A stretch of 64,000 bases of DNA from Burkholderiales bacterium. Lineage in GTDB: Bacteria; Pseudomonadota; Gammaproteobacteria; Burkholderiales; SG8-41. Made by a program: the position numbers and the translations under genes. The stretch is taken from positions 16,857-80,856 of the forward strand of contig JALHND010000002.1 of NCBI GenBank assembly GCA_022843705.1. Direction: 5' to 3'. Shown piece by piece: positions 2,636-63,984 of the stretch; positions within the stretch are counted from its first letter, which is position 1; each line of letters begins with the position of its first letter. Under the pieces are notes generated by a model. It was not told the origin of the DNA. It made no database searches and was given only the letters and a program-made list of their open reading frames with translations.

Positions 2636-2654
2636 GGCATGAAAATCAAAGCAA

Positions 2655-2741
2655 TTAACAGGATGGACAGGATGATCAGGATAAAAACGGAAAACCAAGT
2701 ATCAAAGGGTTTATCCTGAAAATCCTGTCCATCCTGTAAAT
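2655..2741. repeat. palindromic REP/MITE-like element, copy B
   Basis: Left arm is TAACAGGATGGACAGGATGATCAGGATAAAAA. Right arm is GGGTTTATCCTGAAAATCCTGTCCATCCTGTAAA. The ~20 nt loop is unrelated to the copy A loop. The element ends 1 nt before the stop codon (2742-2744) of the HpcH-family gene. Confidence 0.85.
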
Positions 2742-3530
2742 TCAGGTTTTTACGGCATTCACCCGACGGCACACATCCAGAAACAGGTGCCCGTCGGTGC
2801 CCAGCACGATCGCCTGCACGCCGCGGTCACGCACCGACCGGCCGTAGACGGGATCAGGCTTGTTGCCGATGGTGGTCATCACGTGTTTGCCGTGTTTGCG
2901 CGCAGCCGTCACCACCTGCTCCAGCGCGGCAGCCATCTTCGGATTTTCAAACGTGGCATGCGGCACGCCCAGCGCAATCGACAGGTCGGTCGGCCCGATG
3001 AAAAACAGCTCCAGACCCGGCATCGCCGCCATCGCCTCGAAATCCTGCAGCGTCGGTGTGTCCTCGATCAGCGGAATGACCATCAGTTCATCGTTGGCGC
3101 GGCGCACATGCGCGTCCCAGTCGCCCGGCGCATAACCCGCGGAACGCACGATGGTGCAGGCCCCGCGTTGACCCGCGGGCGCGTAACGCGCGTAGTCCAG
3201 CGCCAGCGCGCAGTTTTCCCGGGTGGCATGCGAAATCGCGATGCCGGCCGCGCCCATGTTCATCAGTTTCAGGATCAGGGTGCGTTCAACGTCGGCGATG
3301 CGCACGAAAGGCGTGATGCCGGCGGCATCGGCGGCGCGGATGACATGGGCGCAGGTGTCAAAATCGAGCGCGCTGTGTTCCATGTCGATGATCACGAAAT
3401 CGACGCCGGCGGCTGCGGCCAGCTCGGTGATCATCGGGCTGCCGCTGAACAGGATGAGACCGGTGACGGTCTCGCCGCGTGCCAATGCGGCACGAACCGG
3501 GTTTTTCATGGATGTCATGGATGAAAACAA
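2742..3530 (-). CDS. HpcH/HpaI-family 2-keto-3-deoxy-acid aldolase
   Basis: 262-aa ORF with VDFVIIDMEHS and the overall pattern of the HpaI/HpcH aldolase family. The start is ambiguous, and MKNPVRAAL at 3509 is an alternative. Confidence 0.85.
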   Translation of the reverse strand: MFSSMTSMKNPVRAALARGETVTGLILFSGSPMITELAAAAGVDFVIIDMEHSALDFDTCAHVIRAADAAGITPFVRIADVERTLILKLMNMGAAGIAISHATRENCALALDYARYAPAGQRGACTIVRSAGYAPGDWDAHVRRANDELMVIPLIEDTPTLQDFEAMAAMPGLELFFIGPTDLSIALGVPHATFENPKMAAALEQVVTAARKHGKHVMTTIGNKPDPVYGRSVRDRGVQAIVLGTDGHLFLDVCRRVNAVKT

Positions 3531-4923: not shown

Positions 4924-6360
4924 ATGCCCCGAGAAATCGCCCTTACCGCCGAAGTCGCCCGCTTCGTCACCCGCACCCGTACGGCGCAGATTCCGCGCGC
5001 GGTGATGCACCACGGCAAACGTTCCCTGCTCGACGGTCTCGGCCTCGCGCTGGCCGGCAACGCCGCCGAGTCCGGCCATGTCATCCGCCGCTACCTGAAG
5101 ACGCTGGGCCTGCCGCTGGACCGCGGTGCCACGGTGATCGGCACCGCGCTCAGGGTACCGCCGCGTTTCGCCGCCTTCGCCAACGGCATCGCGATCCATG
5201 CCGACGATTACGACGATACCCAGCTCGCAGTGGCCAAAGACCGCGTCTACGGCCTGCTCACCCACCCCACGGCGCCGGCACTGCCCGCCGTGCTGGCACT
5301 GGCCGAACACGGCAACCGTTCCGGCCTCGACCTGCTGACAGCGTACCAGATCGCCGTCGAGGTCGAAACCAAACTCGCCGAAGCGATCAACCCGCGCCAT
5401 TACGCCGACGGCTTCCATTCCACGGCAACCTTCGGTGCCATCGGTGCCGCCGCCGGCGCGGCACGGCTGCTCGGGCTCGACGCCGCCCAGACCGCGCAGG
5501 CGCTGAGCCTGGGCGCCAGCCAGGCCGCCGGCCTGCGCGAGAACTTCGGCACCATGACCAAGCCCTTCCATCCCGGCCGTTCCGCGGAATCGGGCGTGAT
5601 GGCGGCGGAACTGATCCGCCTCGGCTGGAGCGCCGCACCGGATGCGCTGGAAGCAAAACGCGGCTTCTTCAACGCCGCCGGCGGCGGTTACGACCCGAAG
5701 GCCATCCACGGCAAGCTCGGCAAACCCTGGACCTTCGCGATGCCTGGCGTCTCGATCAAACCCCATCCCAGCGGCTCGCTGACCCATCCCGGCATGGGTG
5801 TCATGCTCGAACTCGTGCTGCAGAACGACATCCGGCCGGCGCAGGTGCGCAAAATCCGCGTCGGCACCAATCGCCACATGCCCAACACACTGATCCACCG
5901 CCGCCCAAGAACGGAACTGCAGGCCAAGTTCAGCATGGAATTCTGCATGGCGATACTGCTGCTCGAACGCAGGGCCGGCCTGGCGCAGTTCACCGATGCC
6001 GTGGTGCGCCGCGCCGATGTGCAGCGCATGATCGGCCTGGTCGAATTCGGCGTGCATCCCGAAGCCGAGGCCGCCGGCTACGAAAAAATGACCACCATCA
6101 TCGACATCGAACTGAAGGACGGCCGCGTGATCAGCGGCCGCGCCGATTTCGGCAAGGGCAGTCCCGCCTATCCGATGAGCGACGGAGAGGTCGCGGACAA
6201 ATTCCGCGAATGCGCAGCCTGGGGCGGGCTGCCGCCGGCGCGGGCCGAGCAGGTGATCGAGCGGGTCTTCCGTCTCGAAAAACTCGAATCGGTGCGCGAG
6301 CTGACCCGGCTGCTGGTGCCGGCTCCGCGGCGCAAAGGGTCGGCCCGGACAAGGAAATAG
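4924..6360 (+). CDS. MmgE/PrpD-family protein (2-methylcitrate dehydratase-like)
   Basis: 478-aa ORF. Its N-terminus (AEVARFV...IP...KRSLLDGLGLALAG) and its length are typical of the MmgE/PrpD family. Confidence 0.85.
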   Translation: MPREIALTAEVARFVTRTRTAQIPRAVMHHGKRSLLDGLGLALAGNAAESGHVIRRYLKTLGLPLDRGATVIGTALRVPPRFAAFANGIAIHADDYDDTQLAVAKDRVYGLLTHPTAPALPAVLALAEHGNRSGLDLLTAYQIAVEVETKLAEAINPRHYADGFHSTATFGAIGAAAGAARLLGLDAAQTAQALSLGASQAAGLRENFGTMTKPFHPGRSAESGVMAAELIRLGWSAAPDALEAKRGFFNAAGGGYDPKAIHGKLGKPWTFAMPGVSIKPHPSGSLTHPGMGVMLELVLQNDIRPAQVRKIRVGTNRHMPNTLIHRRPRTELQAKFSMEFCMAILLLERRAGLAQFTDAVVRRADVQRMIGLVEFGVHPEAEAAGYEKMTTIIDIELKDGRVISGRADFGKGSPAYPMSDGEVADKFRECAAWGGLPPARAEQVIERVFRLEKLESVRELTRLLVPAPRRKGSARTRK

Positions 6361-8461: not shown

Positions 8462-8502
8462 AAAAAAGACTGCGGGGCACTGGCCCTGCAGTCTTTTTTT
8501 TT
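8462..8502. terminator. intrinsic terminator (bidirectional A-run/stem/T-run)
   Basis: AAAAAAGACTGCGGGG-CACTGG-CCCTGCAGTC followed by T9. The stem is 10 bp with one G-T pair. Confidence 0.8.
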
Positions 8503-8547
8503 GCGAAAATGCTGCATCGCACACAGATTCCATCCTTACGGAGTGAC

Positions 8548-10706: not shown

Positions 10707-11108
10707 CTAGGGTTGATCCCAGCCCTTCAGTTCGGCAATGCGCCGTTCCGTGCGCTCGATCATGCAGCCGTGGAAACGCGCGTTGCGGATCGACCCGCCC
10801 TCGAACAGCTTGTACATGCCTTCGCAATCCTGGCGACGGAACTCCACCCAGCTGCGCTGCGCCTCCGCCAGCCGCCGCCTGACCGTGCCGCGGTCAACCT
10901 GCTGGGAATCGCTGCCGTCGATGCGCTTGAGCAATTCCTGGTAAACGCGATTCAGTTCGCGGTCGGTCGTCACGAACAGCTGGTTCATGCACTCGCTGAT
11001 CTCGCCGGTATTGATCGCAGCGGCGCAGGGATCGGCGGCCTGCGCCGCGTGCAGCAGTGGCATCGCAGACATCGCGAGTATACCCGTCAGCGCCCGAACA
11101 GTTTTCAT
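10707..11108 (-). CDS. DUF1311/LprI-family (lysozyme inhibitor-like) secreted protein
   Basis: ORF 10707-11147 trimmed to MKTVRALTGILAMSAMPLLHA (signal peptide). It carries the LprI-type motifs C...ELNRVYQELL...Q..W..FR...C. Confidence 0.75.
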   Translation of the reverse strand: MKTVRALTGILAMSAMPLLHAAQAADPCAAAINTGEISECMNQLFVTTDRELNRVYQELLKRIDGSDSQQVDRGTVRRRLAEAQRSWVEFRRQDCEGMYKLFEGGSIRNARFHGCMIERTERRIAELKGWDQP

Positions 11109-11141
11109 AAGTATTTGTTTATATTGGTATTTTTCAATTTT
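11106..11141 (-). repeat. AT-rich intercistronic element, copy 1
   Basis: The minus strand reads GAAAATTGAAAAATACCAATATAAACAAATACTTATGAA. It contains the TGA stop of the upstream gene (11134-11136) and the ATG of the downstream gene (11106-11108). Confidence 0.8.
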
Positions 11142-11598
11142 CGCCACGCTCGCCTAGCAGCCGCCCGTTGCGCTCCACCCGGGTCGTGCAGGACGTGGCG
11201 CCGCAGCCATACTCGGTCCTGACCACATCCTTCGGCGTCACCAGGATCGTGCCCTGGCCGCGTTTCGCGCTGCCGGCATCGTATTCATAAATCACCAGCC
11301 CCGCCGGCTCGCTGATGGTCATCACGTAGCGGATGTATTGGCCGAAATACAGACCCTTCTCCTGCGGCAGCACCATCTCCACGCGCAGCGGAATGCGGTT
11401 CTTGGTATTCGGATGCGTGCGGTAATAACGTTTCACCCGCTCGCCATAACGGAAGGAAGGATCGACCGCGGCGATGCGCTGCATCAGCTTCAGTTCGCTC
11501 GGCCGCAGCGGCGTATCCTCCACGCCCATGCCGGTCCCCGCCGCAGCCGTTGCCGCAAGCGCCAGCGACAAGCCGCAGGCATGACTCCACCGGATCAT
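11134..11598 (-). CDS. hypothetical secreted protein
   Basis: ORF 11134-11625 trimmed to MIRWSHACGLSLALAATAAAG (signal-like). GC3-rich codon usage. I do not recognise a family. Confidence 0.55.
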   Translation of the reverse strand: MIRWSHACGLSLALAATAAAGTGMGVEDTPLRPSELKLMQRIAAVDPSFRYGERVKRYYRTHPNTKNRIPLRVEMVLPQEKGLYFGQYIRYVMTISEPAGLVIYEYDAGSAKRGQGTILVTPKDVVRTEYGCGATSCTTRVERNGRLLGERGEN

Positions 11599-12047
11599 GC
11601 GGCAACGGATGCCGCTGCAGGCCATTGCAACAACTCGTAGGCACCGTCGTCGCTGTTGCCTGCAGCGATGCGGATCCAGCCGAGACGGCGGTAGAAACGC
11701 AGGGCATCAACATTCGACTTCAGGCATTTCAGGCTCCAGGGCCGCGGCATGCTGATCCGCAGGGATTCGAGCAACGCACTGGCCACTCCGCGCCTCCGCG
11801 CGCGCTCCCGCACGTACAGGTGATGCACAAAAGCCTGCGGCTCCCACACCGCGATCAGTCCGTCGATGATCCCGTCCGGGGCCACCGCGACGATCACCCG
11901 CTCACCCTCCGAGTCATGCGCAAAATTTGCATTCATCCGTGCAGCGGGCGGCAACCACTCCGCGCGGCCGCGGATGTCCGCGTACAGCCGCTGCAGCGCC
12001 GGCGCATCAGCCGGACCCGCCTCGCGCAGTTCATGCATCACCACCAT
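11595..12047 (-). CDS. GNAT-family N-acetyltransferase
   Basis: The segment HHLYVRERARRRGVASALLESL...ALRFYRRLGW is the acetyl-CoA binding motif A region of GNATs. The start is uncertain (ATGs at 12056, 12047 and 12038). Confidence 0.75.
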   Translation of the reverse strand: MVVMHELREAGPADAPALQRLYADIRGRAEWLPPAARMNANFAHDSEGERVIVAVAPDGIIDGLIAVWEPQAFVHHLYVRERARRRGVASALLESLRISMPRPWSLKCLKSNVDALRFYRRLGWIRIAAGNSDDGAYELLQWPAAASVAA

Positions 12048-12411
12048 CCTCCGCATCCTCGTAGGCCTCCGGCCGGAAACGCGGCGTGCAGATGGCCAGG
12101 AACACCAGATCACCCTCGCCGGCATTGGCAATGCGCTGGCGCACCGACGGCGGAATCATCACCACGTCACCGGCCTGCACTTCCTGCGGCGGGTAATCAC
12201 CGATCTCCATGCGCCCCACGCCGTCGAGAATCACATAACGCTCGACGGTGTCGCGCACCCGGTGCCAGCGCGTGGTGACGCCGGGCCCGACCCGCGCCCG
12301 GGCGATCGACATCGCCGGGTCGCTGTCGTCGTTGGACAGTTCGAGGATGTGGCAACGCTCTTCCGTCAGGACTTCGGCAGCGGGATGGGGGCGGAGGATC
12401 GGGGGAAGCAT
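12031..12411 (-). CDS. cupin-domain protein
   Basis: 126-aa reading from MLPPILRPHP at 12411. The cupin motifs G.....H.H...E.Y.ILDG and GD.V.IPP are present (TTRWHRVRDTVERYVILDG; GDVVMIPPSVRQRI). Confidence 0.75.
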   Translation of the reverse strand: MLPPILRPHPAAEVLTEERCHILELSNDDSDPAMSIARARVGPGVTTRWHRVRDTVERYVILDGVGRMEIGDYPPQEVQAGDVVMIPPSVRQRIANAGEGDLVFLAICTPRFRPEAYEDAEDGGDA

Positions 12412-12509
12412 GGCGGCATTATCGCAGAGCCTCGCTGTGCATTCCCGCATGACGCACACGGAAACCTTGCAGAAAGCCGCGATTGCGTCCCTGGCGGAAC
12501 AGGGATCCC

Positions 12510-13004
12510 TTATTTCGGCGGCGCAGGAAACTGCACGTAAGGCTGCGCCGGCTCCCGCTCCGGCGGCACGTAGACCGGCGCCGGCTTGCCCGCGGGTCCG
12601 AGGTGGCGCACGTAACGGTAGATTGCACGCAGGTCGGCATCGTTCATGCCCTGGAGGTTGAACCAGGGCATGGGCGGACGCCATTCGACGCGCGCATGCT
12701 TCAGCCACTGCGCCTCGCTCATGTTGTTCATGACCAGCCGCAGATTGCTGGCATACGTCGTACCCCAGGGACCGCGCCAGCCCAGCGGGCTGCCGGTGAG
12801 CCATTCCTTTTCCGGCGTCCTGCCGTTCGATTCCGGATAACCGGGGGTATGGCAATCATTGCAGCCGGTGATGCGAACAAGGTAACGCCCGCGCTGGATG
12901 TCGGCCTGCGGATGCTGCGGACTCGCCGCGGCGGCAGACAATGTCCAGGCCTGCAGCATGCAGGCGATGCCGGCAGCCACAGCCGGGATGAAAATCGCTC
13001 TCAT
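12510..13004 (-). CDS. c-type cytochrome (single CxxCH)
   Basis: ORF trimmed to MRAIFIPAVAAGIACMLQA (signal peptide). The heme motif is CNDCH. Its ATG overlaps the TGA of the upstream tetR (ATGA). Confidence 0.8.
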   Translation of the reverse strand: MRAIFIPAVAAGIACMLQAWTLSAAAASPQHPQADIQRGRYLVRITGCNDCHTPGYPESNGRTPEKEWLTGSPLGWRGPWGTTYASNLRLVMNNMSEAQWLKHARVEWRPPMPWFNLQGMNDADLRAIYRYVRHLGPAGKPAPVYVPPEREPAQPYVQFPAPPK

Positions 13005-13654
13005 GATCCGGATCTCCCCTGTGTTGTCGCAGCCGCCGGTTTTCGGCCGCCGCTTTTCGATGAACCTTCGTCCAGCGCTGCGCGTACCAGCGCACGCACC
13101 GCCCAGCTTTTCGCATCCCGCGCCTGCCGCCCGTCGATGCGCAGCACGTCGCGGGCGACAATCATCGCCTCCGGGCCGAAGAGCAGCGCCAGCGCGGTGC
13201 ACAGCCGTCCGTAATCGGCATCACCGATGCGTGCGCGCGCCGGCGCGAGCGCGGCCTCGATCAGCGGCAGGCGCCTGTTCTGGCGGCGCGGCAGCGTGTC
13301 GTCTGCGGTATCGCGGCCGATGCTGTTTGCAAGCATCAGCCGCAGCTGCGGCTCGTTGCGCCAGGTCACGTCGTGCATGAAGGCCTCCGCACGGTCGATG
13401 CGCGCTTCGGCATCGGTGGAGGCATCATGTGCGAACAGCGCGGCAGGATCGGCCACCGCCTCGTCGACCGGCACTTCGACCAGCAGTGCATCGACATTCG
13501 AAAAATGACGATAGGCAGTCGCGCGCGACACCAGGGCTTCGGCAGCCACCTCCTCCATCGACGGCCGGCGCCCCGATTTCAGCAGCCGGCCAGCAGCCTG
13601 CAGCAGATCCTTGCGGGTGCGCAATTCACGGTTGCTGCCGCGGCGTGGCATCAT
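13001..13654 (-). CDS. TetR/AcrR-family transcriptional regulator
   Basis: 217-aa ORF with the N-terminal HTH segment RKDLLQAAGRLLKSGRRPSMEEVAAEALVSRATAYRHFSN. Confidence 0.9.
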   Translation of the reverse strand: MMPRRGSNRELRTRKDLLQAAGRLLKSGRRPSMEEVAAEALVSRATAYRHFSNVDALLVEVPVDEAVADPAALFAHDASTDAEARIDRAEAFMHDVTWRNEPQLRLMLANSIGRDTADDTLPRRQNRRLPLIEAALAPARARIGDADYGRLCTALALLFGPEAMIVARDVLRIDGRQARDAKSWAVRALVRAALDEGSSKSGGRKPAAATTQGRSGS

Positions 13655-14070
13655 TGCTGCAGCTGGCGCATGACCGCCGCCACGTCGAGCCAGACCTGCT
13701 CCCTCGCAATCTGCCCGGATTCAGTGAACTCGACGACATGCAGCAACCTGAACTCCAGCGGCCGCCCGCGCCCCTCGAACCCGAACGGCCGGCCGGGCGC
13801 CTTGCCCTGCCACAGTGATTCATCGACCAGAAAGCCGTTGCCGTGAAGCCTGCGCAGCGGCGTCACCCGGCCGTCGGCGAGGTCGGCAAACAGTGTTTCG
13901 TAGAAACGACGCGCGGCTTCGCGTCCGTGGCTCGGCCCCTCCGTCCAGCCGACAACGTCATGCGTCGCGTCGGGCGCCAGCGTGGCAAGCACACCTTCGA
14001 CGTCGTCACGGCCTTCATAACCGAAATGTTCGTCGATCTTACGGTCCATCTGTGCGGGTGTCAGGGGCAT
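13651..14070 (-). CDS. SnoaL-like / ester-cyclase (NTF2-fold) protein
   Basis: 139-aa ORF. The segment D..FGYEGRDDVEGVLATLAPDATHD...FYETLFADL is typical of ester-cyclase/SnoaL-like proteins. It overlaps the tetR start by 4 nt. Confidence 0.7.
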   Translation of the reverse strand: MPLTPAQMDRKIDEHFGYEGRDDVEGVLATLAPDATHDVVGWTEGPSHGREAARRFYETLFADLADGRVTPLRRLHGNGFLVDESLWQGKAPGRPFGFEGRGRPLEFRLLHVVEFTESGQIAREQVWLDVAAVMRQLQQ

Positions 14071-14134: not shown

Positions 14135-14191
14135 GACAACAATCCATAAAATCTCCATTCAGAAATGACCAAGGCCGCTGTCGCGGCCTTG

Positions 14192-14231
14192 GAAAATAAC
14201 CATAACTATTTGTTTTATATTGTTTTATTCT
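14192..14231 (-). repeat. AT-rich intercistronic element, copy 2
   Basis: The minus strand reads CAGAATAAAACAATATAAAACAAATAGTTATGGTTATTTTCC. It contains the TAA stop of tcuB (14225-14227). Confidence 0.75.
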
Positions 14232-21174: not shown

Positions 21175-21212
21175 CTTAAAAATATCAATAAAATCAATTA
21201 TTTAAATTAAAC
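21175..21212 (+). repeat. AT-rich element, copy 3 (diverged)
   Basis: Reads TTCTTAAAAATATCAATAAAATCAATTATTTAAATTAAA. It ends 21 nt upstream of the SMP-30-like ATG and contains AATCAATTATTTA, a perfect WATCAANNNNTTR match. Confidence 0.7.
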
Positions 21213-22162: not shown

Positions 22163-22176
22163 CAGCGCAGCCCGCG

Positions 22177-22210
22177 AAAAAAAACGGCGCACACTGTGCG
22201 CCGTTTTTTT
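22177..22210. terminator. bidirectional intrinsic terminator
   Basis: A8-ACGGCGCAC-ACT-GTGCGCCGT-T7, lying between convergent genes. Confidence 0.85.
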
Positions 22211-22224
22211 CGCACGGGCAGCGC

Positions 22225-27566: not shown

Positions 27567-27598
27567 AAAAAAAACGCCGCTGCAGATGCGGCGGCGTC
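27567..27598 (-). terminator. intrinsic terminator downstream of gabD
   Basis: The minus strand reads GACGCCGCCGC-ATCT-GCAGCGGCG followed by T8. It ends only 14 nt upstream of the VOC-gene ATG. Confidence 0.85.
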
Positions 27599-27647: not shown

Positions 27648-27685
27648 GTATATAAGTATTTGATTTTATTAAATTATTTATTAAC
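27648..27685 (-). repeat. AT-rich element, copy 4
   Basis: The minus strand reads GTTAATAAATAATTTAATAAAATCAAATACTTATATAC. Positions 27648-27670 are 23/23 identical to 58569-58591. The element contains the TAA stop and the last codons of gabD. Confidence 0.85.
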
Positions 27686-38725: not shown

Positions 38726-42382
<3,657 letters not shown>

Positions 42383-47535: not shown

Positions 47536-47596
47536 GCAGGAGGCACGGTGGCGCCACCCTGCCGAAGTGGTTGACCCGGCTGGATCAGTGATATAT

Positions 47597-47615
47597 ATTG
47601 AGAATCATTCTCATT
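47597..47615. promoter_or_regulatory. Fur box
   Basis: The sequence is ATTGAGAATCATTCTCATT. Its core TGAGAATCATTCTCA is a perfect 15-bp palindrome, and it matches the central GATAATCATTATC of the Fur consensus at 11/13 positions. It lies 27 nt upstream of the hemP ATG. Confidence 0.8.
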
Positions 47616-47641
47616 TATATTCAGCTGATCAGGTGATATCC

Positions 47642-47842
47642 ATGTCCGCCATGCCATCGACCCAGAGCGCCGATCCCCAGACCCCCAATCCGCCGGTCAC
47701 CGGCAGCACCGCTCCGGACACCCCTCCGGAAATCAGCAGCCTGCGGCTGCTCGGCGGCCAGGGCCTGTTGCGCATCGAACACCGGGGCGCTGTCTACACG
47801 CTGCGCGCGACCAGCAAGGGCGGGCTGATCCTGACCAAATGA
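47642..47842 (+). CDS. hemP: HemP/hemin-uptake-protein-family small protein
   Basis: ORF 47462-47842 trimmed to the ATG at 47642. This 66-aa protein ends IEHRGAVYTLRATSKGGLILTK, the HemP signature (..Y.LR.T..GKLILTK). Confidence 0.8.
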   Translation: MSAMPSTQSADPQTPNPPVTGSTAPDTPPEISSLRLLGGQGLLRIEHRGAVYTLRATSKGGLILTK

Positions 47843-47941
47843 CCAGCCGGCGCGGCGGCATGTTCCGCCGCACCGCCACCCCGCCAGCCCGCGGATGTTC
47901 CTGCGCGATCGCCAGCCCCGACTGAAACCCGGAGATCCGCA

Positions 47942-48196
47942 ATGCCTGCAAGCCCCGCACCCGAACCCCGCATCGAACAAGCGCCCGCGATCAGCGGCGC
48001 CGGCCATGCCGCAGTGATCCTGTCGCTGATGTCGCACCAGCTGCGCAGCCCCTGCCCGCTGCTGATCTGCGCCATCGCCCGGCGGCTGGCCTGCCTGTCG
48101 CAGGCCTGCGGCGACGGCTCCGCCGAGGCCTTGCACAAACTCGCCGATGCCCTGCTGCCGCAGTGGCGCAACACCCTCCTCCCCCTCCGCCACTGA
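47942..48196 (+). CDS. hypothetical 84-aa Cys-containing protein
   Basis: GC3-rich ORF on the same strand as hemP. No family recognised. Confidence 0.45.
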   Translation: MPASPAPEPRIEQAPAISGAGHAAVILSLMSHQLRSPCPLLICAIARRLACLSQACGDGSAEALHKLADALLPQWRNTLLPLRH

Positions 48197-48208
48197 ACGC
48201 AAACCGCG

Positions 48209-48445
48209 ATGCCTTCGCCCGTTCACCGGAAAATCATTGCGCGCGGCCTGGTTGCCGAGGTCGAACACTGCGCGGATTGCGACATCATGCAGCTGCACAT
48301 CGGCGCCTTCACGCTGCGCCTGAAACCCGTGGTGCTGCATGACCTGCGCGACACGCTGAGCCGCGCGCTGGAGAATCTGCCGCCCGGCAAAACCCGGGAT
48401 GCCCACAACGATGCGGAACTGCGCTCCGGTGGCAGCTGCCACTGA
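48209..48445 (+). CDS. hypothetical 78-aa protein (CADCD motif)
   Basis: GC3-rich ORF starting 12 nt after the previous one. No family recognised. Confidence 0.45.
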   Translation: MPSPVHRKIIARGLVAEVEHCADCDIMQLHIGAFTLRLKPVVLHDLRDTLSRALENLPPGKTRDAHNDAELRSGGSCH

Positions 48446-49548: not shown

Positions 49549-50481
49549 ATGAACGAGCAGGAACGCAAGGCCGTGCTGACGGTATGCCTGATGGCGGCAT
49601 TCGCCGACGGCAGCAAACACGAGCGCGAGCGCGCCGAAGTCAAAAACATCGCCGAAACCCTCGCCGGTGAAACCTCGATCAACCTCTCCGCGCTTGTCCA
49701 GGACGTGCTGCTGAAGCGCGCGTCGCTGCCCCAGGCGGCGGCAATGCTGGTCACGCCCGAGTCGCGCCAGCTTGCTTTCGAAATGGCGGTCTGCGTCTGC
49801 GATGCCGACGGCGCGCAATCGCCGGCGGAACGCGAATTCCTCGAATCACTGCGTGTCGCGCTGGGCCTCGATGCCGCGCAGGCCGGCAGTTTCAGCGCGC
49901 AGGCGGAGTCCATCGCCGGCGCGCCGCTGGCGCCGGCCGCAACAGTCAGCGCCGCATCAACAATGACCCGCGAGGAAATGGACAAGGCCATCCTCAATGC
50001 CGCGATCCTCAACGGCGCGATTGAGCTGCTGCCTGAATCGCTGTCCACCATGGCGATCATTCCGCTGCAGATGAAGCTGGTCTACCGCATCGGCAAGTCC
50101 TACGGTTATGAGCTCGACCGCGGCCACATCAAGGATTTCCTGGCGACCGCGGGTGTCGGCCTGACCTCGCAGTACCTGGAACAGGCGGGACGCAAACTCC
50201 TCGGCGGACTGCTGCGCAGCGTCGGTGGCGGCCTGCTCGGCGGCCTCGGCAAACAGGCTGTCAGCTCCGGCATGAGTTTCGCCAGCACCTATGCGCTGGG
50301 TCATGTCGCGCGCCACTACTACGCCGGCGGCCGCACGCTGAACACGCAGATGCTGCGCGAGGCCTTCAACGACATGTTGGGCGAAGCAAAAAACCTGCAG
50401 GGACGTTACCTGCCGGAGATGCAGGCGCAGGCACGCACGCTGGATGCGGGACGCCTGGTCAGCCTCGTGCGGCAGGGCTGA
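49549..50481 (+). CDS. TerB-like N-domain protein with a conserved C-terminal domain of unknown function
   Basis: 310-aa ORF. The N-terminal TerB-like pattern is LMAAFADG...ERAEV...AVCVCDADG...EREFL. I do not firmly recognise the C-terminal part (IIPLQMKLVYRIGKSYGYELD). Confidence 0.6.
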   Translation: MNEQERKAVLTVCLMAAFADGSKHERERAEVKNIAETLAGETSINLSALVQDVLLKRASLPQAAAMLVTPESRQLAFEMAVCVCDADGAQSPAEREFLESLRVALGLDAAQAGSFSAQAESIAGAPLAPAATVSAASTMTREEMDKAILNAAILNGAIELLPESLSTMAIIPLQMKLVYRIGKSYGYELDRGHIKDFLATAGVGLTSQYLEQAGRKLLGGLLRSVGGGLLGGLGKQAVSSGMSFASTYALGHVARHYYAGGRTLNTQMLREAFNDMLGEAKNLQGRYLPEMQAQARTLDAGRLVSLVRQG

Positions 50482-50493
50482 GATGCCCCGCCG

Positions 50494-50530
50494 TATATAT
50501 CATAAGTATTTGATTATAAACAACTTTTAA
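50494..50530 (-). repeat. AT-rich element, copy 6
   Basis: The minus strand reads GCTTAAAAGTTGTTTATAATCAAATACTTATGATATATAC. It contains the TAA stop of the PrpF-family gene and fills the 45-bp convergent gap. Confidence 0.8.
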
Positions 50531-58566: not shown

Positions 58567-58601
58567 TTGTATATAAGTATTTGATTTTATTTATTATTTT
58601 A
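58567..58601 (-). repeat. AT-rich element, copy 7
   Basis: The minus strand reads CTAAAATAATAAATAAAATCAAATACTTATATACA. It contains the TAA stop and the last two codons of the upstream lyase gene, and ends 20 nt before the next ATG. Confidence 0.85.
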
Positions 58602-61012: not shown

Positions 61013-61834
61013 ATGGACGCAGCACCTTCGAAAATCGTCAGCCTGTCCGCGCTGGCCAAACTGATCCCGGACGGCACCGCGCTGGGTCTCGGCGGCGTAT
61101 TCCTGCATCGCGGCCCCTTCGCGCTGGTGCGCGAACTGGTACGGCAGCAGCGCCGGCGGCTGGAGATCATCAAGCCCTCCCCCGGTTACGACCTCGACCT
61201 GCTGTGCCGCGCCGGTGCAGTCGCCAAAGTGCGCGCCGGCATTGTCGCGATGGAAGGCAATTTCGGCCTTGCACGCTGGTACCGCAAGGCCATCGAGCGC
61301 AAGGAGGCGCATCTCGAGGAACATGCCTGAATGACCCTGGTCGCGGGGCTGCGTGCAGCCTCCTACGGAATTCCCTTCCAGCCGGTGGCCGGCGTGCACG
61401 GCAGCGAACTGGCGCGCATCAACGGCTGGCAGACACTGCGCGATCCCTACGGCTCGGACAACGAGGTCTATGTCATTCCGGCGCTGAGCCCCGACATCGC
61501 GGTGATCCATGCCGCGGAAATCGACGATGAAGGCAATGCCCGGGTCTACGGTTCGCCGTTCTGGGACCATCCGCTGACCCGCGCCGCAAAACGCGTGCTG
61601 GTCACCGCCGAAAAACTCGTGCCCACCGACCGCCTGCGCGAACAACCCGAACTGACGCTGGTGCCGGGTTTCATGGTCGAGGCCGCGGCCATCGTGCCGC
61701 GGGGCGCATGGCCGGGCTCGATGCACCCGTACTACGACATCGACTACCCCGCGGTCGAACGCTACATGGAAGACCGCGACGGCGTGCTTGAACAACATCT
61801 CGCCGATGCCCCGGAAGCCGATTCATCGCGCTGA
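61013..61834 (+). pseudogene. glutaconate-type CoA-transferase subunit A (GctA-like), interrupted by an in-frame TGA at 61328-61330
   Basis: Track ORFs 61013-61330 and 61331-61834 are in the same frame. Joined, they read ...AHLEEHA*MTLVAGLRAASYGIPFQPV..., a continuous GctA-like sequence of ~272 aa. Confidence 0.7.
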
Positions 61835-62348
61835 ACCCGCGCCGGTGGTGCACGGCTTCGCTCCGCTGGCCGATGCCGGCGCGCGCGTGCTGATACTGGG
61901 CAGCATGCCGGGCGCCGAATCCCTGCGCGCGGGGCAGTACTATGCCCATCCGCGCAACGCGTTCTGGCGCATCATGGGTGACCTCGTCGGCGCCGGACCC
62001 GGCCTCGCCTACGCAACGCGCACGCGCCGGCTGAAATCCGCGGGCATCGCGCTGTGGGATGTGCTCGCCGCCTGCGCGCGCAAAGGCAGCCTTGATGCCG
62101 ACATCGATCCCGACTCGGTGATCACCAATGAGCTGCCGGCCTTTTTTATGCGTCATCCGCGGATCACGCATGTGTTTTTCAACGGCGCCACCGCCGAACG
62201 CTGCTTCCGCATCCATGTGCAGCCGGCGCTGGAATCGGGTGCGCTGCGCTTGCAACGGCTGCCCTCGACCAGCCCGGCGCATGCCGCGATGGACTACCGG
62301 CGCAAGCTGCAGGCTTGGCAGGTCATTCTGAAGTCCATAAAAATATGA
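61806..62348 (+). CDS. DNA-deoxyinosine (hypoxanthine) glycosylase, UDG family 6-like
   Basis: ORF 61788-62348 trimmed to the ATG at 61806. The LILGSMPGAESLRAGQYYAHPRNAFWRIMG motif is typical of this family. It overlaps the gctA-like 3' end by 29 nt. Confidence 0.75.
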   Translation: MPRKPIHRAEPAPVVHGFAPLADAGARVLILGSMPGAESLRAGQYYAHPRNAFWRIMGDLVGAGPGLAYATRTRRLKSAGIALWDVLAACARKGSLDADIDPDSVITNELPAFFMRHPRITHVFFNGATAERCFRIHVQPALESGALRLQRLPSTSPAHAAMDYRRKLQAWQVILKSIKI

Positions 62349-62372
62349 ATAAAAACAGATACTTATGAACAA
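62337..62372 (+). repeat. AT-rich element, copy 8
   Basis: Reads CATAAAAATATGAATAAAAACAGATACTTATGAACA. It contains the TGA stop of the glycosylase gene (62346-62348) and the ATG of the EamA gene (62365-62367). Confidence 0.8.
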
Positions 62373-63234
62373 TGCCTTGCTGCTGTCCATCAGCAGCGCA
62401 CTGTGTTTCGGCCTGGGCATGGTCACTTCGCGCATCGGCCTGCGGCAGCTTGATGCACGCTCGGGCGCCGCCATCAGCATCCCCTCGGCCACGCTGCTGT
62501 TCCTCGCAACCGCGCCCTTCACCATCGAACTGACGGCCTTCAACACCGGCGCCGCATTGATATTCGCCGCGGTCGGCCTGTTTTATCCGGCGCTGGTCAC
62601 ACTGCTCACCTTCCGCTCCAACGAGGAACTCGGCCCGACCGTGACCAGCGCGATCTCCGGCACCGCGCCGCTGTTCGCGATGCTCGCCGCAGTGCTGTTT
62701 CTCGGAGAACACGTGCCGCCGCAGGCAACGGCCGCGGCAATCGGCGTCGCCGCCGGTGTCGCCCTGCTGTCATGGCAGCCCGGGGCGCTGCGCGCAGGTT
62801 TTTCAGGCCGCGCACTGCTGTGGCCGGTCGCCGGCGCCATCCTGCGCGGAGCGGCCCAGGCCGGCGCGAAGGCGGGCCTGCTGCTGTGGGGCAATCCCTT
62901 TGCCGCCGGAGTCATCGGCTACCTCGTGTCCTCGGCGGCGGTGACCGGCGCCGATCGCCTGCGCGCCGGAAAACCCGGCAGGATTCCGCGCAGCGGCCTG
63001 CTCTGGTTTGTGCTGACCGGACTGATCAACGGCGGCGCCATGCTGCTGATGTATGCCGCGCTGGCCATCGCGCCGGTGTCGACCGTGGCGCCGGTGATTG
63101 CCGCCTATCCGCTGGTCACCGCGCTCGCCACTGCGCTGTTCCTGCGCGGCGAAATCCTCAATGCGCGCATCATTGCCGGAGCCGTCATCACGGTTGCGGC
63201 CATTGCCTGGCTGGCCGGCAGCCGCGCAGCCTGA
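62365..63234 (+). CDS. EamA/DMT-family transporter
   Basis: 289-aa ORF with ten hydrophobic helices in two EamA-like halves. Confidence 0.85.
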   Translation: MNNALLLSISSALCFGLGMVTSRIGLRQLDARSGAAISIPSATLLFLATAPFTIELTAFNTGAALIFAAVGLFYPALVTLLTFRSNEELGPTVTSAISGTAPLFAMLAAVLFLGEHVPPQATAAAIGVAAGVALLSWQPGALRAGFSGRALLWPVAGAILRGAAQAGAKAGLLLWGNPFAAGVIGYLVSSAAVTGADRLRAGKPGRIPRSGLLWFVLTGLINGGAMLLMYAALAIAPVSTVAPVIAAYPLVTALATALFLRGEILNARIIAGAVITVAAIAWLAGSRAA

Positions 63235-63255
63235 AGTGCCCGATATACTCCCGCC

Positions 63256-63984
63256 ATGGACTGGACACCCTTTTCCTTCATCGTCGTCAACCTCGCGCGC
63301 CAGATCCGCGCCGGCGAAATCACCTTCAGCGGCGTCAACTCGACATTGCCGATGCTCGCCTGCCTGCTCGCCAAACGCGCCTTCGATTTTCCGTTCACCT
63401 ACATCAACGTCGCCGGCGGCGTCGAACCGCAGCCGGTCGAGGTGCCGCTGTCGAGCAGCGATCCGGCCATCGTTCACGGCTCGCCGGCGATTTTCGCCAA
63501 CCAGGATTTCTACGACCTCTGCGCGCGCGGCGGCCTCGACCTTGTGTATCTCGGCTGCGCGCAGATCGACGCCGAAGGCCGCACCAACGTCTCGGCAATC
63601 GGCTCCTGGGAAAATCCGAAAGTGCGCCTGCCGGGCGGCGGCGGTGCCGCGGTGATGCTGCCGACCGCAAAACGCGTCGTCACCTGGCGCACCGACCACA
63701 CACCGCGCGCGCTGGTCGACAAACTCGATTTCGTCACCGCCTCCGGAAACATGACGGCGCTGGTGACGCCGCTGGCGGTGTTCCTGCGCGATCCGCGGGC
63801 CGGCTCACGCTTCCGGCTCGAGGTTTTCAACCCGCAAACCACGGTTGAAGACATCGTCACCCGCACCGGATTCCGTTTCGAATACGGCGCGGCAAAACCT
63901 GCGCTGCCGATGACCGATGGCGAACGGCAGGCACTCGAGCTGCTCGACACCGGCGGACGTTTTTCCGCGGCCTTCAAGGGCTGA
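63256..63984 (+). CDS. glutaconate-type CoA-transferase subunit B (GctB-like)
   Basis: 242-aa ORF with GVNSTLPMLA..., AQIDAEGRTNVS and RLPGGGGAAVM, typical of family I CoA-transferase beta subunits of the GctB type. Confidence 0.8.
   Translation: MDWTPFSFIVVNLARQIRAGEITFSGVNSTLPMLACLLAKRAFDFPFTYINVAGGVEPQPVEVPLSSSDPAIVHGSPAIFANQDFYDLCARGGLDLVYLGCAQIDAEGRTNVSAIGSWENPKVRLPGGGGAAVMLPTAKRVVTWRTDHTPRALVDKLDFVTASGNMTALVTPLAVFLRDPRAGSRFRLEVFNPQTTVEDIVTRTGFRFEYGAAKPALPMTDGERQALELLDTGGRFSAAFKG

What the first reader, a model, noticed from the sequence alone, without database searches (positions are those of the whole stretch)
27648..27685. Family of 35-40 bp AT-rich elements with an IHF-consensus core, found mostly at stop codons of co-oriented genes
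There are eight clear copies in 64 kb of GC-rich DNA: 11106-11141(-), 14192-14231(-), 21175-21212(+), 27648-27685(-), 39963-40000(+), 50494-50530(-), 58567-58601(-) and 62337-62372(+). Positions 27648-27670 and 58569-58591 are 23/23 identical (GTATATAAGTATTTGATTTTATT). Copies 1, 2 and 8 share TTCATAAGTAT(T/C)TGTTT..AT...TATTTTT. The rough consensus in element orientation is AAAA.TAT.AATAAAA(T/A)CAAATACTTAT(G/A). The core AATCAAATACTTA, or AATCAATTATTTA, is a perfect match to the IHF consensus WATCAANNNNTTR in four copies and 1-2 mismatches away in the others. It is preceded by an A/T tract, as in strong IHF sites. In six of the eight copies the A-rich 5' end overlaps the stop codon of an upstream gene in the same orientation. 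That bias argues for function or selection at the transcript level, or for an orientation-specific insertion mechanism. I do not recognise this as a described repeat family.
Basis: partly seen in the sequence, partly recalled or inferred. Interest (0 to 1): 0.78.

Follow-up and report, generated by a model that had tools for sequence, protein, structure and literature searches.

The report
Conserved AT-rich IHF-like sites after stop codons
A real, undescribed family of ~36-bp AT-rich DNA motifs sits just past stop codons in either orientation in an uncultured group of GC-rich Burkholderiales, is kept by selection, and most likely binds a DNA-bending protein such as IHF.

Summary
All eight copies exist as described, and they are far beyond chance. 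The 19-mer with up to 3 mismatches has 6 hits against 0 expected, and 8 of the 12 AT-rich islands in the window are this motif.

The same ~36-bp consensus, (T)AAAAATATCA-ATAAAAWCAAATACTTAT-RWWW, recurs in many high-GC Burkholderiales and Betaproteobacteria MAGs.

- **Position.** In 134 copies from 84 loci plus the window, the element hugs gene 3' ends. The stop codon often lies inside either end of it. It is commonest between convergent genes and rarest between divergent ones.
- **Orientation.** Orientation relative to genes is random (39 vs 34 in tandem regions).
- **Structure.** It has no hairpin. It can lie upstream of a separate intrinsic terminator or inside an operon.
- **Selection.** At one orthologous slot it persists across a clade, with core identity 0.81 against 0.59 at synonymous sites. 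It is nearly absent from outgroups.
- **Coding copy.** One copy lies inside an oxoprolinase gene with no length change, and it is conserved in an orthologue.

It is therefore a DNA-level motif made by substitution, not a transposon. Its pattern of conservation (AA.CAA....TTR plus an upstream A-tract, ~35 bp) mirrors the IHF consensus. The best reading is a family of IHF-type architectural sites, like E. coli RIB/RIP elements without the REP hairpins. The binding protein is untested, and an uptake-sequence-like drive is not excluded.

The parts
11106..11141 (-). Copy 1. The A-rich end overlaps the stop codon (11134-11136) of the upstream - strand gene. The ATG of CTTATG (11108-11106) starts the LprI-family gene, with no Shine-Dalgarno (SD) sequence.
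14192..14231 (-). Copy 2, a diverged core (AAACAAATAGTTAT). It overlaps the stop codon 14225-14227 of the upstream gene. A 10-bp-stem hairpin follows directly at 14169-14192.
21175..21212 (+). Copy 3, in a divergent intergenic region, 21 nt upstream of the ATG 21233 of an SMP-30/gluconolactonase gene. Its core AATCAATTATTTA matches WATCAANNNNTTR perfectly.
27648..27685 (-). Copy 4. It overlaps the stop codon (27674-27676) of an aldehyde dehydrogenase gene. A separate canonical intrinsic terminator (27567-27596, - strand) lies about 50 nt further downstream, so the element sits in the 3'UTR DNA and is not itself the terminator.
39963..40000 (+). Copy 5, inside the 1218-aa hydantoinase/oxoprolinase ORF (38726-42382). 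It is in frame and encodes [12 protein letters not shown]. There is no indel relative to homologues, and the motif is conserved in the orthologue L123 (KILNKNKYLQS = AAAAAATATTGAATAAAAACAAATACTTAC).
50494..50530 (-). Copy 6. It fills the 45-bp gap between convergent genes: PrpF, with its stop at 50527-50529, and a TerB-like gene ending at 50481.
58567..58601 (-). Copy 7. It forms the 46-bp spacer between the stop codon (58594-58596) of a lyase (Lyase_1/ADSL_C) and the ATG (58547) of a 2-hydroxyacid dehydrogenase. This is the slot used for the orthologous-locus test.
62337..62372 (+). Copy 8. It overlaps the UDG-family gene stop codon (62346-62348). The ATG of CTTATG (62365) is the start of the EamA transporter gene, and Pfam aligns from residue 4. 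There is no SD sequence.

Best explanation
The elements are a lineage-wide family of ~36-bp, non-palindromic, AT-rich DNA sites kept by selection as binding sites for a sequence-specific DNA-bending protein. IHF is the best available candidate.

**Anatomy.** An A-tract (positions -10 to -6) is followed by about 9 bp, then a core AAWCAA-NNNN-TTR, then a short A/T tail. The total is about the 35 bp that IHF wraps.

**Placement.** They occupy the least constrained extragenic DNA. This lies immediately past stop codons, in either orientation, most often between convergent genes. They also occur inside operons and upstream of ordinary terminators.

**Inferred role.** The likely role is architectural or topological, for example bending, or insulating or relieving transcription-driven supercoiling. 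It is not control of the flanking genes. In this they resemble the IHF-binding RIB/RIP (BIME-1) repeats at the 3' ends of E. coli transcription units, but without the REP hairpins.

**Shown:** the family, its anatomy, its placement, its orientation independence, in-situ conservation, and origin by substitution in one coding copy. **Inferred:** that a protein reads it, that this protein is IHF, and the architectural role.
For: - **Non-chance and widespread.** The motif is far above chance in the window. The same extended consensus appears in more than 80 high-GC Betaproteobacteria loci whose flanks were not part of the search pattern.
- **Acts on DNA, not RNA.** Orientation relative to genes is random, 39 vs 34 and 63 vs 58. 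There is no secondary structure, z between 0 and +1. Only 22 of 119 copies have a hairpin within 45 nt.
- **3'-end niche.** Occupancy is convergent 53% > tandem 29% > divergent 21%, chi-square p = 0.007. The element is closer to the stop in 56 cases against 14, p = 4e-7.
- **Selection.** At the lyase/dehydrogenase slot, 18 of the 23 clade loci (at least 83% aa identity) carry an element scoring at least 28. Three more carry a weaker copy (score 27), one a decayed remnant (L136), and one none after a rearrangement (L126). Pairwise identity in the core is 0.81, against 0.59 at 4-fold synonymous sites. Density is 22 copies in 113 kb in the clade against 2 in 263 kb in outgroups.
- **Coding copy.** It was made by substitution and is conserved in an orthologue.
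- **IHF shape.** The conserved and variable positions follow WATCAANNNNTTR. Of 60 unascertained copies, 13 match perfectly and 37 have one mismatch. In the window there are 4 perfect matches against 0.34 expected for the whole window.
- **Precedent.** In E. coli, fewer than 10% of IHF motifs in bound regions lie upstream of operons (PMC3333857). BIME-1 linkers carry IHF sites at the 3' ends of transcription units (PMC3333891, citing Boccard & Prentki 1993).
Against: - No binding data exist.
- About 65% of copies have A, not T, at the T of WATCAA.
- Positions IHF does not specify are also conserved: AATAAAA 5' of the core, and A12. The family is far more uniform than a degenerate IHF regulon would need to be.
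- IHF is universal in Proteobacteria, yet the family is confined to one lineage. It is absent from outgroup loci and from cultured Burkholderiales plasmids and chromids. That pattern fits a lineage-specific reader better.
- The logo from 'unascertained' copies still comes from a PWM (position weight matrix) scan, so it leans towards the model.
- Gene calls are from my own simple caller.
Confidence: 0.4

Rival explanations
1. The elements are binding sites for a lineage-specific, highly sequence-specific DNA-binding protein other than IHF. Candidates include a domesticated transposase or recombinase, or a dedicated architectural or roadblock factor. The resemblance to the IHF consensus would then be partial coincidence in AT-rich DNA.
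For: The family is confined to one lineage. Its information content and uniformity over about 19 bp plus flanks exceed what a degenerate nucleoid-associated protein (NAP) needs. Positions outside the IHF consensus are conserved. Position 6 deviates from IHF in about 65% of copies.
Against: No candidate protein was identified. The pattern of conserved versus variable positions, the A-tract spacing and the ~35-bp extent all fit IHF. There are no hairpins, terminal inverted repeats or target duplications of the kind that Y1-transposase or REP systems use.
Confidence: 0.2
2. The elements are uptake-signal-like sequences. The competence machinery of this lineage prefers DNA carrying the motif, and biased uptake plus recombination (molecular drive) accumulates and homogenises copies wherever they are tolerated.
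For: - The motif is uniform and lineage-specific. It is shared by many related species, occurs in both orientations equally, and sits in tolerant DNA just past stop codons.
- Copies in coding DNA arise by substitution without indels, in a poorly conserved loop and in a signal-peptide n-region. They always use the one open frame, N-K-N/I-K-Y-L.
- This is what is described for USS and DUS, the uptake signal sequences of Haemophilus and Neisseria, in coding regions (PMC2817400).
Against: - Density is about 1 per 5-8 kb. In H. influenzae and N. meningitidis it is about 1 per kb (PMC2817400 counts).
- Only about 2% of copies are intragenic, against 35-65% for USS/DUS.
- No uptake specificity is known in Burkholderiales (one search found none).
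- The match to the IHF consensus would be left unexplained.
Confidence: 0.15
3. The element is a signal for gene expression: a promoter, a protein-independent terminator, an RNA 3'UTR or intercistronic element, or an A/U-rich translation enhancer that replaces the Shine-Dalgarno (SD) sequence.
For: - Many genuine start codons lie 0-15 nt past either end of the element with no SD. Examples are EamA at 62365, LprI at 11108, Fpg in L021, RibD in L070 and an aldo-keto reductase in L100.
- In the orthologous slot, several species lost the SD while the ATG moved up to the element.
- The element is transcribed as 3'UTR or operon spacer.
Against: - Orientation is random, so the RNA would be A-rich in half the cases and U-rich in the other half.
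- Occupancy is highest between convergent genes and lowest in divergent promoter regions, the opposite of what a promoter would show.
- There is no hairpin. A separate intrinsic terminator follows copy 4.
- The element sits inside a conserved two-gene operon. One conserved copy lies in the middle of a gene.
- SD-less starts are better explained as a side effect of an unstructured A/U-rich leader.
Confidence: 0.1
4. The element is a miniature mobile element (MITE- or REP-like) that spreads by insertion at or next to stop codons.
For: There are many near-identical copies. Outgroup operons have 1-20 nt spacers where the clade has a 45-70 nt spacer containing the element. In L140 an element is split or duplicated around a 140-bp insert.
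Against: - There are no terminal inverted repeats, no palindrome and no target-site duplication.
- The intragenic copy replaces 12 codons with no length change.
- Copies at one orthologous slot are old and diverge by substitution while keeping the core.
- The consensus is shared across genomes of 52-68% GC.
- The motif is rare in viral contigs and in plasmids.
Confidence: 0.05

Closest known systems
RIB/RIP elements (BIME-1 with an IHF site in the L linker) of E. coli and other enterobacteria
   Same: They are repeated extragenic elements at the 3' ends of transcription units and inside operons. They are transcribed but bind a protein at the DNA level, and they carry an IHF consensus site. There are tens to hundreds of copies, and their function is architectural or topological and not fully understood (PMC3333891; Boccard & Prentki 1993, cited there).
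   Different: In RIB/RIP the IHF site is flanked by two inverted REP hairpins, and the family is linked to RAYT Y1 transposases. Here there is no palindrome at all. The whole element is the AT-rich site, in 58-68% GC genomes of Betaproteobacteria. IHF binding is untested.
Canonical high-affinity IHF sites (e.g. lambda H': A-tract + WATCAANNNNTTR)
   Same: The site is asymmetric, with an A-tract about 8-9 bp 5' of the core and a total of about 35 bp. Conserved CAA and TTR are separated by four less conserved bases (the layout of H' is from my own knowledge).
   Different: The T of WATCAA is A in about 65% of copies. Bases that IHF leaves free are conserved here. Sites are far more uniform than natural IHF sites.
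DNA uptake sequences (USS of Pasteurellaceae, DUS of Neisseriaceae)
   Same: They are lineage-specific, uniform, orientation-independent motifs shared by related species. They arise by point substitution, including inside genes at poorly conserved residues (PMC2817400; PMC3630211). The USS also has AT-rich flanks.
   Different: Density here is about 5-8 times lower and the motif is almost excluded from coding DNA. The motif is fully AT-rich and 36 bp long. No competence data exist for this lineage.
REP / REPIN hairpin repeats
   Same: They occupy the same genomic niche. In outgroup species the very same lyase-dehydrogenase spacer is occupied by long hairpins built from inverted heptamer repeats. 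The window itself has one such hairpin at 2636-2745.
   Different: REPs are GC-rich palindromes that act as RNA or ssDNA hairpins. This element is unstructured.

Membership tests
IHF binding site | Match to WATCAANNNNTTR | tested here: inconclusive
   Four of 8 window copies match perfectly, against 0.34 expected in the whole window. Across the family, 13 of 60 unascertained and 32 of 89 ascertained copies are perfect. Nearly all the rest have a single mismatch, T to A at position 3.
IHF binding site | A/T-rich tract about one helical turn 5' of the core, and an overall extent of about 35 bp | tested here: met
   An A-tract lies at -10 to -6, about 9 bp before the W of the core. Information content falls to background outside -11 to +24, a span of about 36 bp.
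IHF binding site | Specified positions conserved, NNNN positions free | tested here: inconclusive
   The mean majority-base frequency is 0.91 at the IHF-specified positions. It is 0.73 at the four N positions, but A12 is 0.92 and the bases 5' of the core are also conserved.
IHF binding site | Bound and bent by IHF | not testable with these tools
   This needs EMSA, footprinting or ChIP-seq.
RIB/RIP (BIME-1) | IHF site flanked by two inverted REP palindromes | tested here: not met
   There is no palindrome in or next to the element. Only 22 of 119 copies have any hairpin of at least 6 bp within 45 nt. Folding z-scores are 0 to +1.
RIB/RIP (BIME-1) | Extragenic location at the 3' ends of transcription units | tested here: met
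   Occupancy is convergent > tandem > divergent. The element is closer to the stop than to the start in 56 of 70 cases.
DNA uptake sequence (USS/DUS) | Strongly over-represented motif, both orientations, shared by related species | tested here: met
DNA uptake sequence (USS/DUS) | Density of about 1 per kb, with a large fraction inside genes | tested here: not met
   There are 8 copies in 64 kb and 1.95 per 10 kb in clade loci. Only about 3 of 134 copies are truly intragenic.
DNA uptake sequence (USS/DUS) | Preferential uptake of motif-bearing DNA by competent cells | not testable with these tools
   No cultured, transformable member is at hand.
MITE / transposon-derived repeat | Terminal inverted repeats, target-site duplication, and presence/absence as a clean indel | tested here: not met
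   There are no terminal inverted repeats or target-site duplications. The coding copy has no indel against 40 homologues. Orthologous copies diverge by substitution.
Intrinsic (Rho-independent) terminator | GC-rich hairpin immediately followed by a U-tract | tested here: not met
   There is no hairpin in the element. Canonical terminators exist elsewhere in the window and separately downstream of copy 4.
Promoter element | Enrichment upstream of genes and in divergent regions, depletion between convergent genes | tested here: not met
   The opposite distribution is seen: divergent 21%, convergent 53% occupancy. No conserved -35 partner lies outside the element.
Rfam RNA family | Covariance-model match | tested here: not met
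   No hit overlaps any copy at the gathering threshold or at E up to 5.

The most novel reading that the evidence does not exclude
The motif is not an ordinary IHF site. It would instead be the recognition sequence of a new lineage-specific system. One possibility is the first DNA uptake signal sequence outside Pasteurellaceae and Neisseriaceae. The other is a dedicated sequence-specific 'punctuation' protein that marks gene ends on the chromosome of an uncultured Burkholiderales-like lineage. Either would explain why a 36-bp AT-rich word is kept nearly letter-perfect across species, and is even written into protein-coding DNA at the cost of 12 amino acids.
Probability: 0.2. Interest if true: 0.85.

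Novelty: new variant of a known kind. Interest (0 to 1): 0.6.

Why it matters
Non-palindromic, protein-site-like extragenic repeats are rarely described. The textbook examples (REP/BIME, Correia elements, ERIC) are hairpins or MITEs.

Here a single asymmetric 36-bp word punctuates gene ends about every 5-8 kb in a whole uncultured lineage. It is under purifying selection at orthologous positions. It can overwrite a protein loop.

If IHF reads it, this is a clean natural system for asking what 3'-end IHF sites do. That question has been open since RIB/RIP elements were found in 1993, and here there is no REP hairpin to confound the answer.

If another reader is responsible (an uptake receptor or a new architectural protein), the motif gives a direct handle for finding it, by DNA-affinity purification or phylogenetic profiling.

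There are also practical uses. The motif is a lineage marker for binning. It also warns annotators that stop and start codons are often embedded in it and that the adjacent genes lack Shine-Dalgarno sequences.

Tried and rejected
- **Chance AT-richness.** Rejected by shuffles, and because most AT-rich islands in the window are this motif.
- **Known RNA family.** None at the gathering threshold or at E up to 5.
- **Literature search for the sequence on both strands.** Only irrelevant primer hits. A search for uptake sequences in Burkholderiales found nothing.
- **Intrinsic terminator.** There are no hairpins, and separate terminators are present.
- **Promoter or sigma-54 enhancer context.** The distribution is wrong. 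Only 5 sigma-54-like sites occur in 656 kb, and none lies within 300 bp of an element.
- **MITE or insertion.** The coding copy shows no indel.
- **First phase-based coding caller.** It gave too many 'no call' results. I replaced it with a codon log-odds caller.
- **Reversed-sequence control for the PWM (position weight matrix) scan.** Uninformative, because the reversed motif is equally AT-rich.
- **Retrieving E. coli RIP annotations for direct comparison.** NC_000913 150-200 kb shows no repeat features, and Boccard & Prentki 1993 is not held.
- **Resemblance to Tus-Ter.** The reverse complement shares ATAAGTAT with TerB. By inspection the GTTGTAAC core is absent, the copy number is too high and there is no polarity, so I rejected it.
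- **Plasmid and viral collections.** Only chance hits in AT-rich replicons.

Full report
**1.
The 23-mer at 27648-27670 is identical to that at 58569-58591.

AATAAAATCAAATACTTAT with up to 3 mismatches occurs 6 times, against 0.00 in 100 dinucleotide-preserving shuffles. WATCAANNNNTTR occurs 5 times against 0.34 expected, and 4 of these hits lie in the elements. Of the 12 AT-rich islands in the window (25-bp windows with at least 19 A/T), 8 are this motif.

With a codon log-odds gene caller trained on the data, plus Pfam, six copies overlap the stop codon of a co-oriented upstream gene, as claimed. Copy 3 lies in a divergent promoter region. Copy 5 lies inside a 1218-aa hydantoinase/oxoprolinase ORF, in frame.

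**2. It is a lineage-wide family with a longer consensus.**
I scanned one genome per species for ATAAAAWCAAATACTTAT. The low-GC hits look like chance.

The 84 loci with at least 55% G+C are different. They are almost all MAGs labelled Burkholderiales or Betaproteobacteria, with some Gallionellales and Nitrosomonadales. They share flanks that were not in the search pattern: (T)AAAAATATCA before the core and RWWWWW after it. Beyond those flanks the sequence becomes GC-rich. Information content is above background from about -11 to +24, which is about 36 bp.

The window itself comes from activated-carbon and drinking-water-plant metagenomes. Homologues of its proteins are named Burkholderiales, Usitatibacter or Casimicrobiaceae. 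The motif is absent from the plasmid collection except for chance hits in AT-rich taxa. It is rare in viral contigs: 94 hits, of which only 5 are in contigs with at least 60% GC. No Rfam family covers it. No paper holds the sequence in a relevant context.

**3. Where it sits.**
A PWM (position weight matrix) scan of the 84 loci plus the window gave 134 elements. Of 111 intergenic copies with both neighbours called, 73 are between tandem genes, 24 between convergent genes and 14 between divergent genes.

Per region of at least 30 bp, occupancy is 53% for convergent, 29% for tandem and 21% for divergent regions (chi-square p = 0.007). The absolute rates are inflated by ascertainment, but the ranking is not. 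In tandem regions the element lies closer to the upstream gene's stop than to the next start in 56 cases against 14 (p = 4e-7). The median distance from the element edge to the stop is -2 bp.

The stop is often inside the element. It can be the TAA of TAAAAAT at one end, or the TAA in the complement of CTTAT at the other.

Orientation relative to genes is random. In tandem regions, 39 copies are co-oriented and 34 anti-oriented. At 3' ends, the A-rich end faces the gene 63 times and the CTTAT end 58 times. The 5-of-5 co-orientation in the window's tandem copies is therefore not general.

**4. What it is not.**
- **Not a hairpin.** DNA folding of five copies gives z-scores of 0 to +1. Only 22 of 119 copies have any stem of at least 6 bp within 45 nt.
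- **Not the terminator.** The genome has ordinary intrinsic terminators. One lies about 50 nt downstream of copy 4, between the element and the next gene. A hairpin directly follows copy 2.
- **Not a promoter.** The distribution is the reverse of what a promoter would show, and nothing outside the element is conserved.
- **Not tied to sigma-54 promoters**.
- **Not an inserted mobile element, at least for copy 5.** Aligned with 40 homologues, the segment [12 protein letters not shown] replaces residues such as EIRRATGDTRSP with no gap. The closest homologue (63% identity, MAG GCA_035488925.1) reads KILNKNKYLQS. That segment is encoded by GAAAAAATATTGAATAAAAACAAATACTTAC, an even better copy of the motif in the same codons.
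- **A third coding example** is the signal-peptide n-region MNKIKYLF in L049. It uses the same frame, the only one without stops.

**5. It is under selection in place.**
I used the lyase gene next to copy 7 to fetch 80 orthologous loci from metagenomes, so the sample was chosen by the protein and not by the motif.

In the 23 loci with at least 83% protein identity, 18 carry an element scoring at least 28 directly after the lyase stop, in the same orientation. Three more carry a weaker copy (score 27), one a decayed remnant (L136), and one none after a rearrangement (L126).

Among 17 of these loci, pairwise identity is 0.59 at 94 four-fold synonymous sites of invariant codons. It is 0.81 in the 18-nt core of the element and 0.61 over all 37 nt.

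In the 55 distinct outgroup loci (at most 79% identity) there are 2 elements in 263 kb, against 22 in 113 kb in the clade. One of the two (L160) is in the same slot but in the opposite orientation, after a hairpin terminator. This suggests an independent gain.

In outgroups the lyase and dehydrogenase genes overlap, are 1-20 nt apart, or are separated by long heptamer-repeat hairpins. The pair is therefore an operon, and the element lives inside it.

**6. How it most likely works.**
Several features point to a sequence read on double-stranded DNA by a protein:
- orientation independence;
- lack of structure;
- a fixed length of about 36 bp;
- conservation in situ;
- a copy written into coding DNA.

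In 60 copies that did not match the exact search core, the near-invariant positions are A4, A5, C7, A8, A9, A12, T14, T15 and R16 (A 0.88, G 0.10). Positions 6, 10, 11, 13 and 17 vary. That is the layout of the IHF consensus WATCAANNNNTTR, with an A-tract about 9 bp upstream as in strong IHF sites. The whole element is about the length of DNA that IHF wraps; the layout of the H' site is from my own knowledge.

Thirteen of the 60 are perfect matches and 37 have one mismatch, almost always A for the T.

In E. coli, fewer than 10% of IHF motifs in bound regions lie upstream of operons (PMC3333857). The RIB/RIP class of BIMEs carries IHF sites at the 3' ends of transcription units (PMC3333891). 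I therefore read the family as IHF-type architectural sites placed in the least constrained extragenic DNA.

The tight contact with stop codons is most simply explained by two things. Deletion bias removes any spacer. In addition, the AT-rich element is the first place where a GC-rich reading frame meets a stop. This last point is inference.

The SD-less start codons that abut either end are probably a side effect of an unstructured A/U-rich leader.

**7. Doubts and rivals.**
- About 65% of copies carry A where IHF wants T.
- Bases that IHF leaves free are conserved.
- The family is much more uniform than binding by a degenerate nucleoid protein requires.
- The family is confined to one lineage, although IHF is universal in Proteobacteria.

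These points favour a lineage-specific reader. That could be an unknown DNA-binding protein or the DNA-uptake machinery. The uptake-sequence reading fits the uniformity, the symmetry of orientation, the sharing among species and the substitution-made coding copies (compare PMC2817400). It does not fit the density (about 1 per 5-8 kb) or the near exclusion from genes.

I put IHF-type site at 0.40, other specific protein at 0.20, uptake-type drive at 0.15, expression signal at 0.10 and mobile element at 0.05.

**8. Novelty and verdict.**
The orientation and transcript-level idea is refuted by the larger sample.

I found no description of this family. The nearest known things are RIB/RIP elements and uptake sequences. 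It fails a defining feature of each: it has no REP hairpins, and its density and coding fraction are too low. I rate it a new variant of a known kind, with interest 0.6.

**Limits.**
- The gene calls are home-made.
- The 84 loci were ascertained by an exact core match.
- The genome scan was truncated.
- Nothing here tests binding.

Noticed in passing
window 2636-2745: A long hairpin built from inverted heptamer repeats (CAGGAT-type units). As RNA it folds at -45.5 kcal/mol, z = -9.5. It lies in a tandem intergenic region and looks like a REP-like element of a different kind from the AT-rich family.
   Followed up: partly
L152, L155, L161, L168, L171, L177, L186, L188 (about 5-100 nt after the lyase stop): In outgroup lineages, the lyase-dehydrogenase spacer holds palindromes made of tandem heptamers (GTGAATC... 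/ ...GATTCAC and variants). The unit sequence differs from lineage to lineage. In the window's clade this same spacer holds the AT-rich element instead.
   Followed up: no
window 47584-47623: An AT-rich island, GATATATATTGAGAATCATTCTCATTTATATTCA, containing a Fur-box-like palindrome (GAGAATCATTCTC). It lies upstream of three small + strand genes at 47642-48445.
   Followed up: no
window 62365 and 11108; L021, L052, L070, L100: Genuine start codons (EamA, LprI, Fpg MPELPEVE, an FAD oxidoreductase, RibD, an aldo-keto reductase) lie 0-2 nt past the element, with no Shine-Dalgarno sequence. In the orthologous lyase/dehydrogenase slot, several species lost the Shine-Dalgarno sequence as the ATG moved up to the element.
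   Followed up: partly
L140 3868-4060: The element after the lyase stop is truncated (TAAATATCAATAAAAAG). It is followed by a ~140-bp insert carrying a Shine-Dalgarno sequence and a 12-codon ORF (MKAKTMLLMLIK), then a second, diverged full element. This may be an insertion into the element with partial duplication.
   Followed up: no
L049 ~5068-5104: The motif core encodes the n-region of a signal peptide (MNKIKYLFAALLLVPTLALA). It uses the same stop-free frame as the oxoprolinase copy.
   Followed up: partly
window 10707-14070: A run of seven small - strand genes with much lower coding scores than the rest of the window. No Pfam hit was found for three ORFs tested in this stretch. It may be a recently acquired or fast-evolving segment. 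It nevertheless carries two diverged copies of the element at its edges.
   Followed up: no
window 61013-63984: Genes for a UDG-family protein and an EamA transporter, joined by element copy 8, sit between CoA-transferase subunit genes (61013-61834 and 63256-63984). The same order occurs in four other metagenome contigs.
   Followed up: no
window 22163-22224 and 8470-8510: These are textbook intrinsic terminators: A-run, GC hairpin, T-run, and bidirectional at 22163-22224. They show that this genome uses ordinary terminators alongside the AT-rich elements. Several weak Rfam sRNA hits pile up on the first one.
   Followed up: partly
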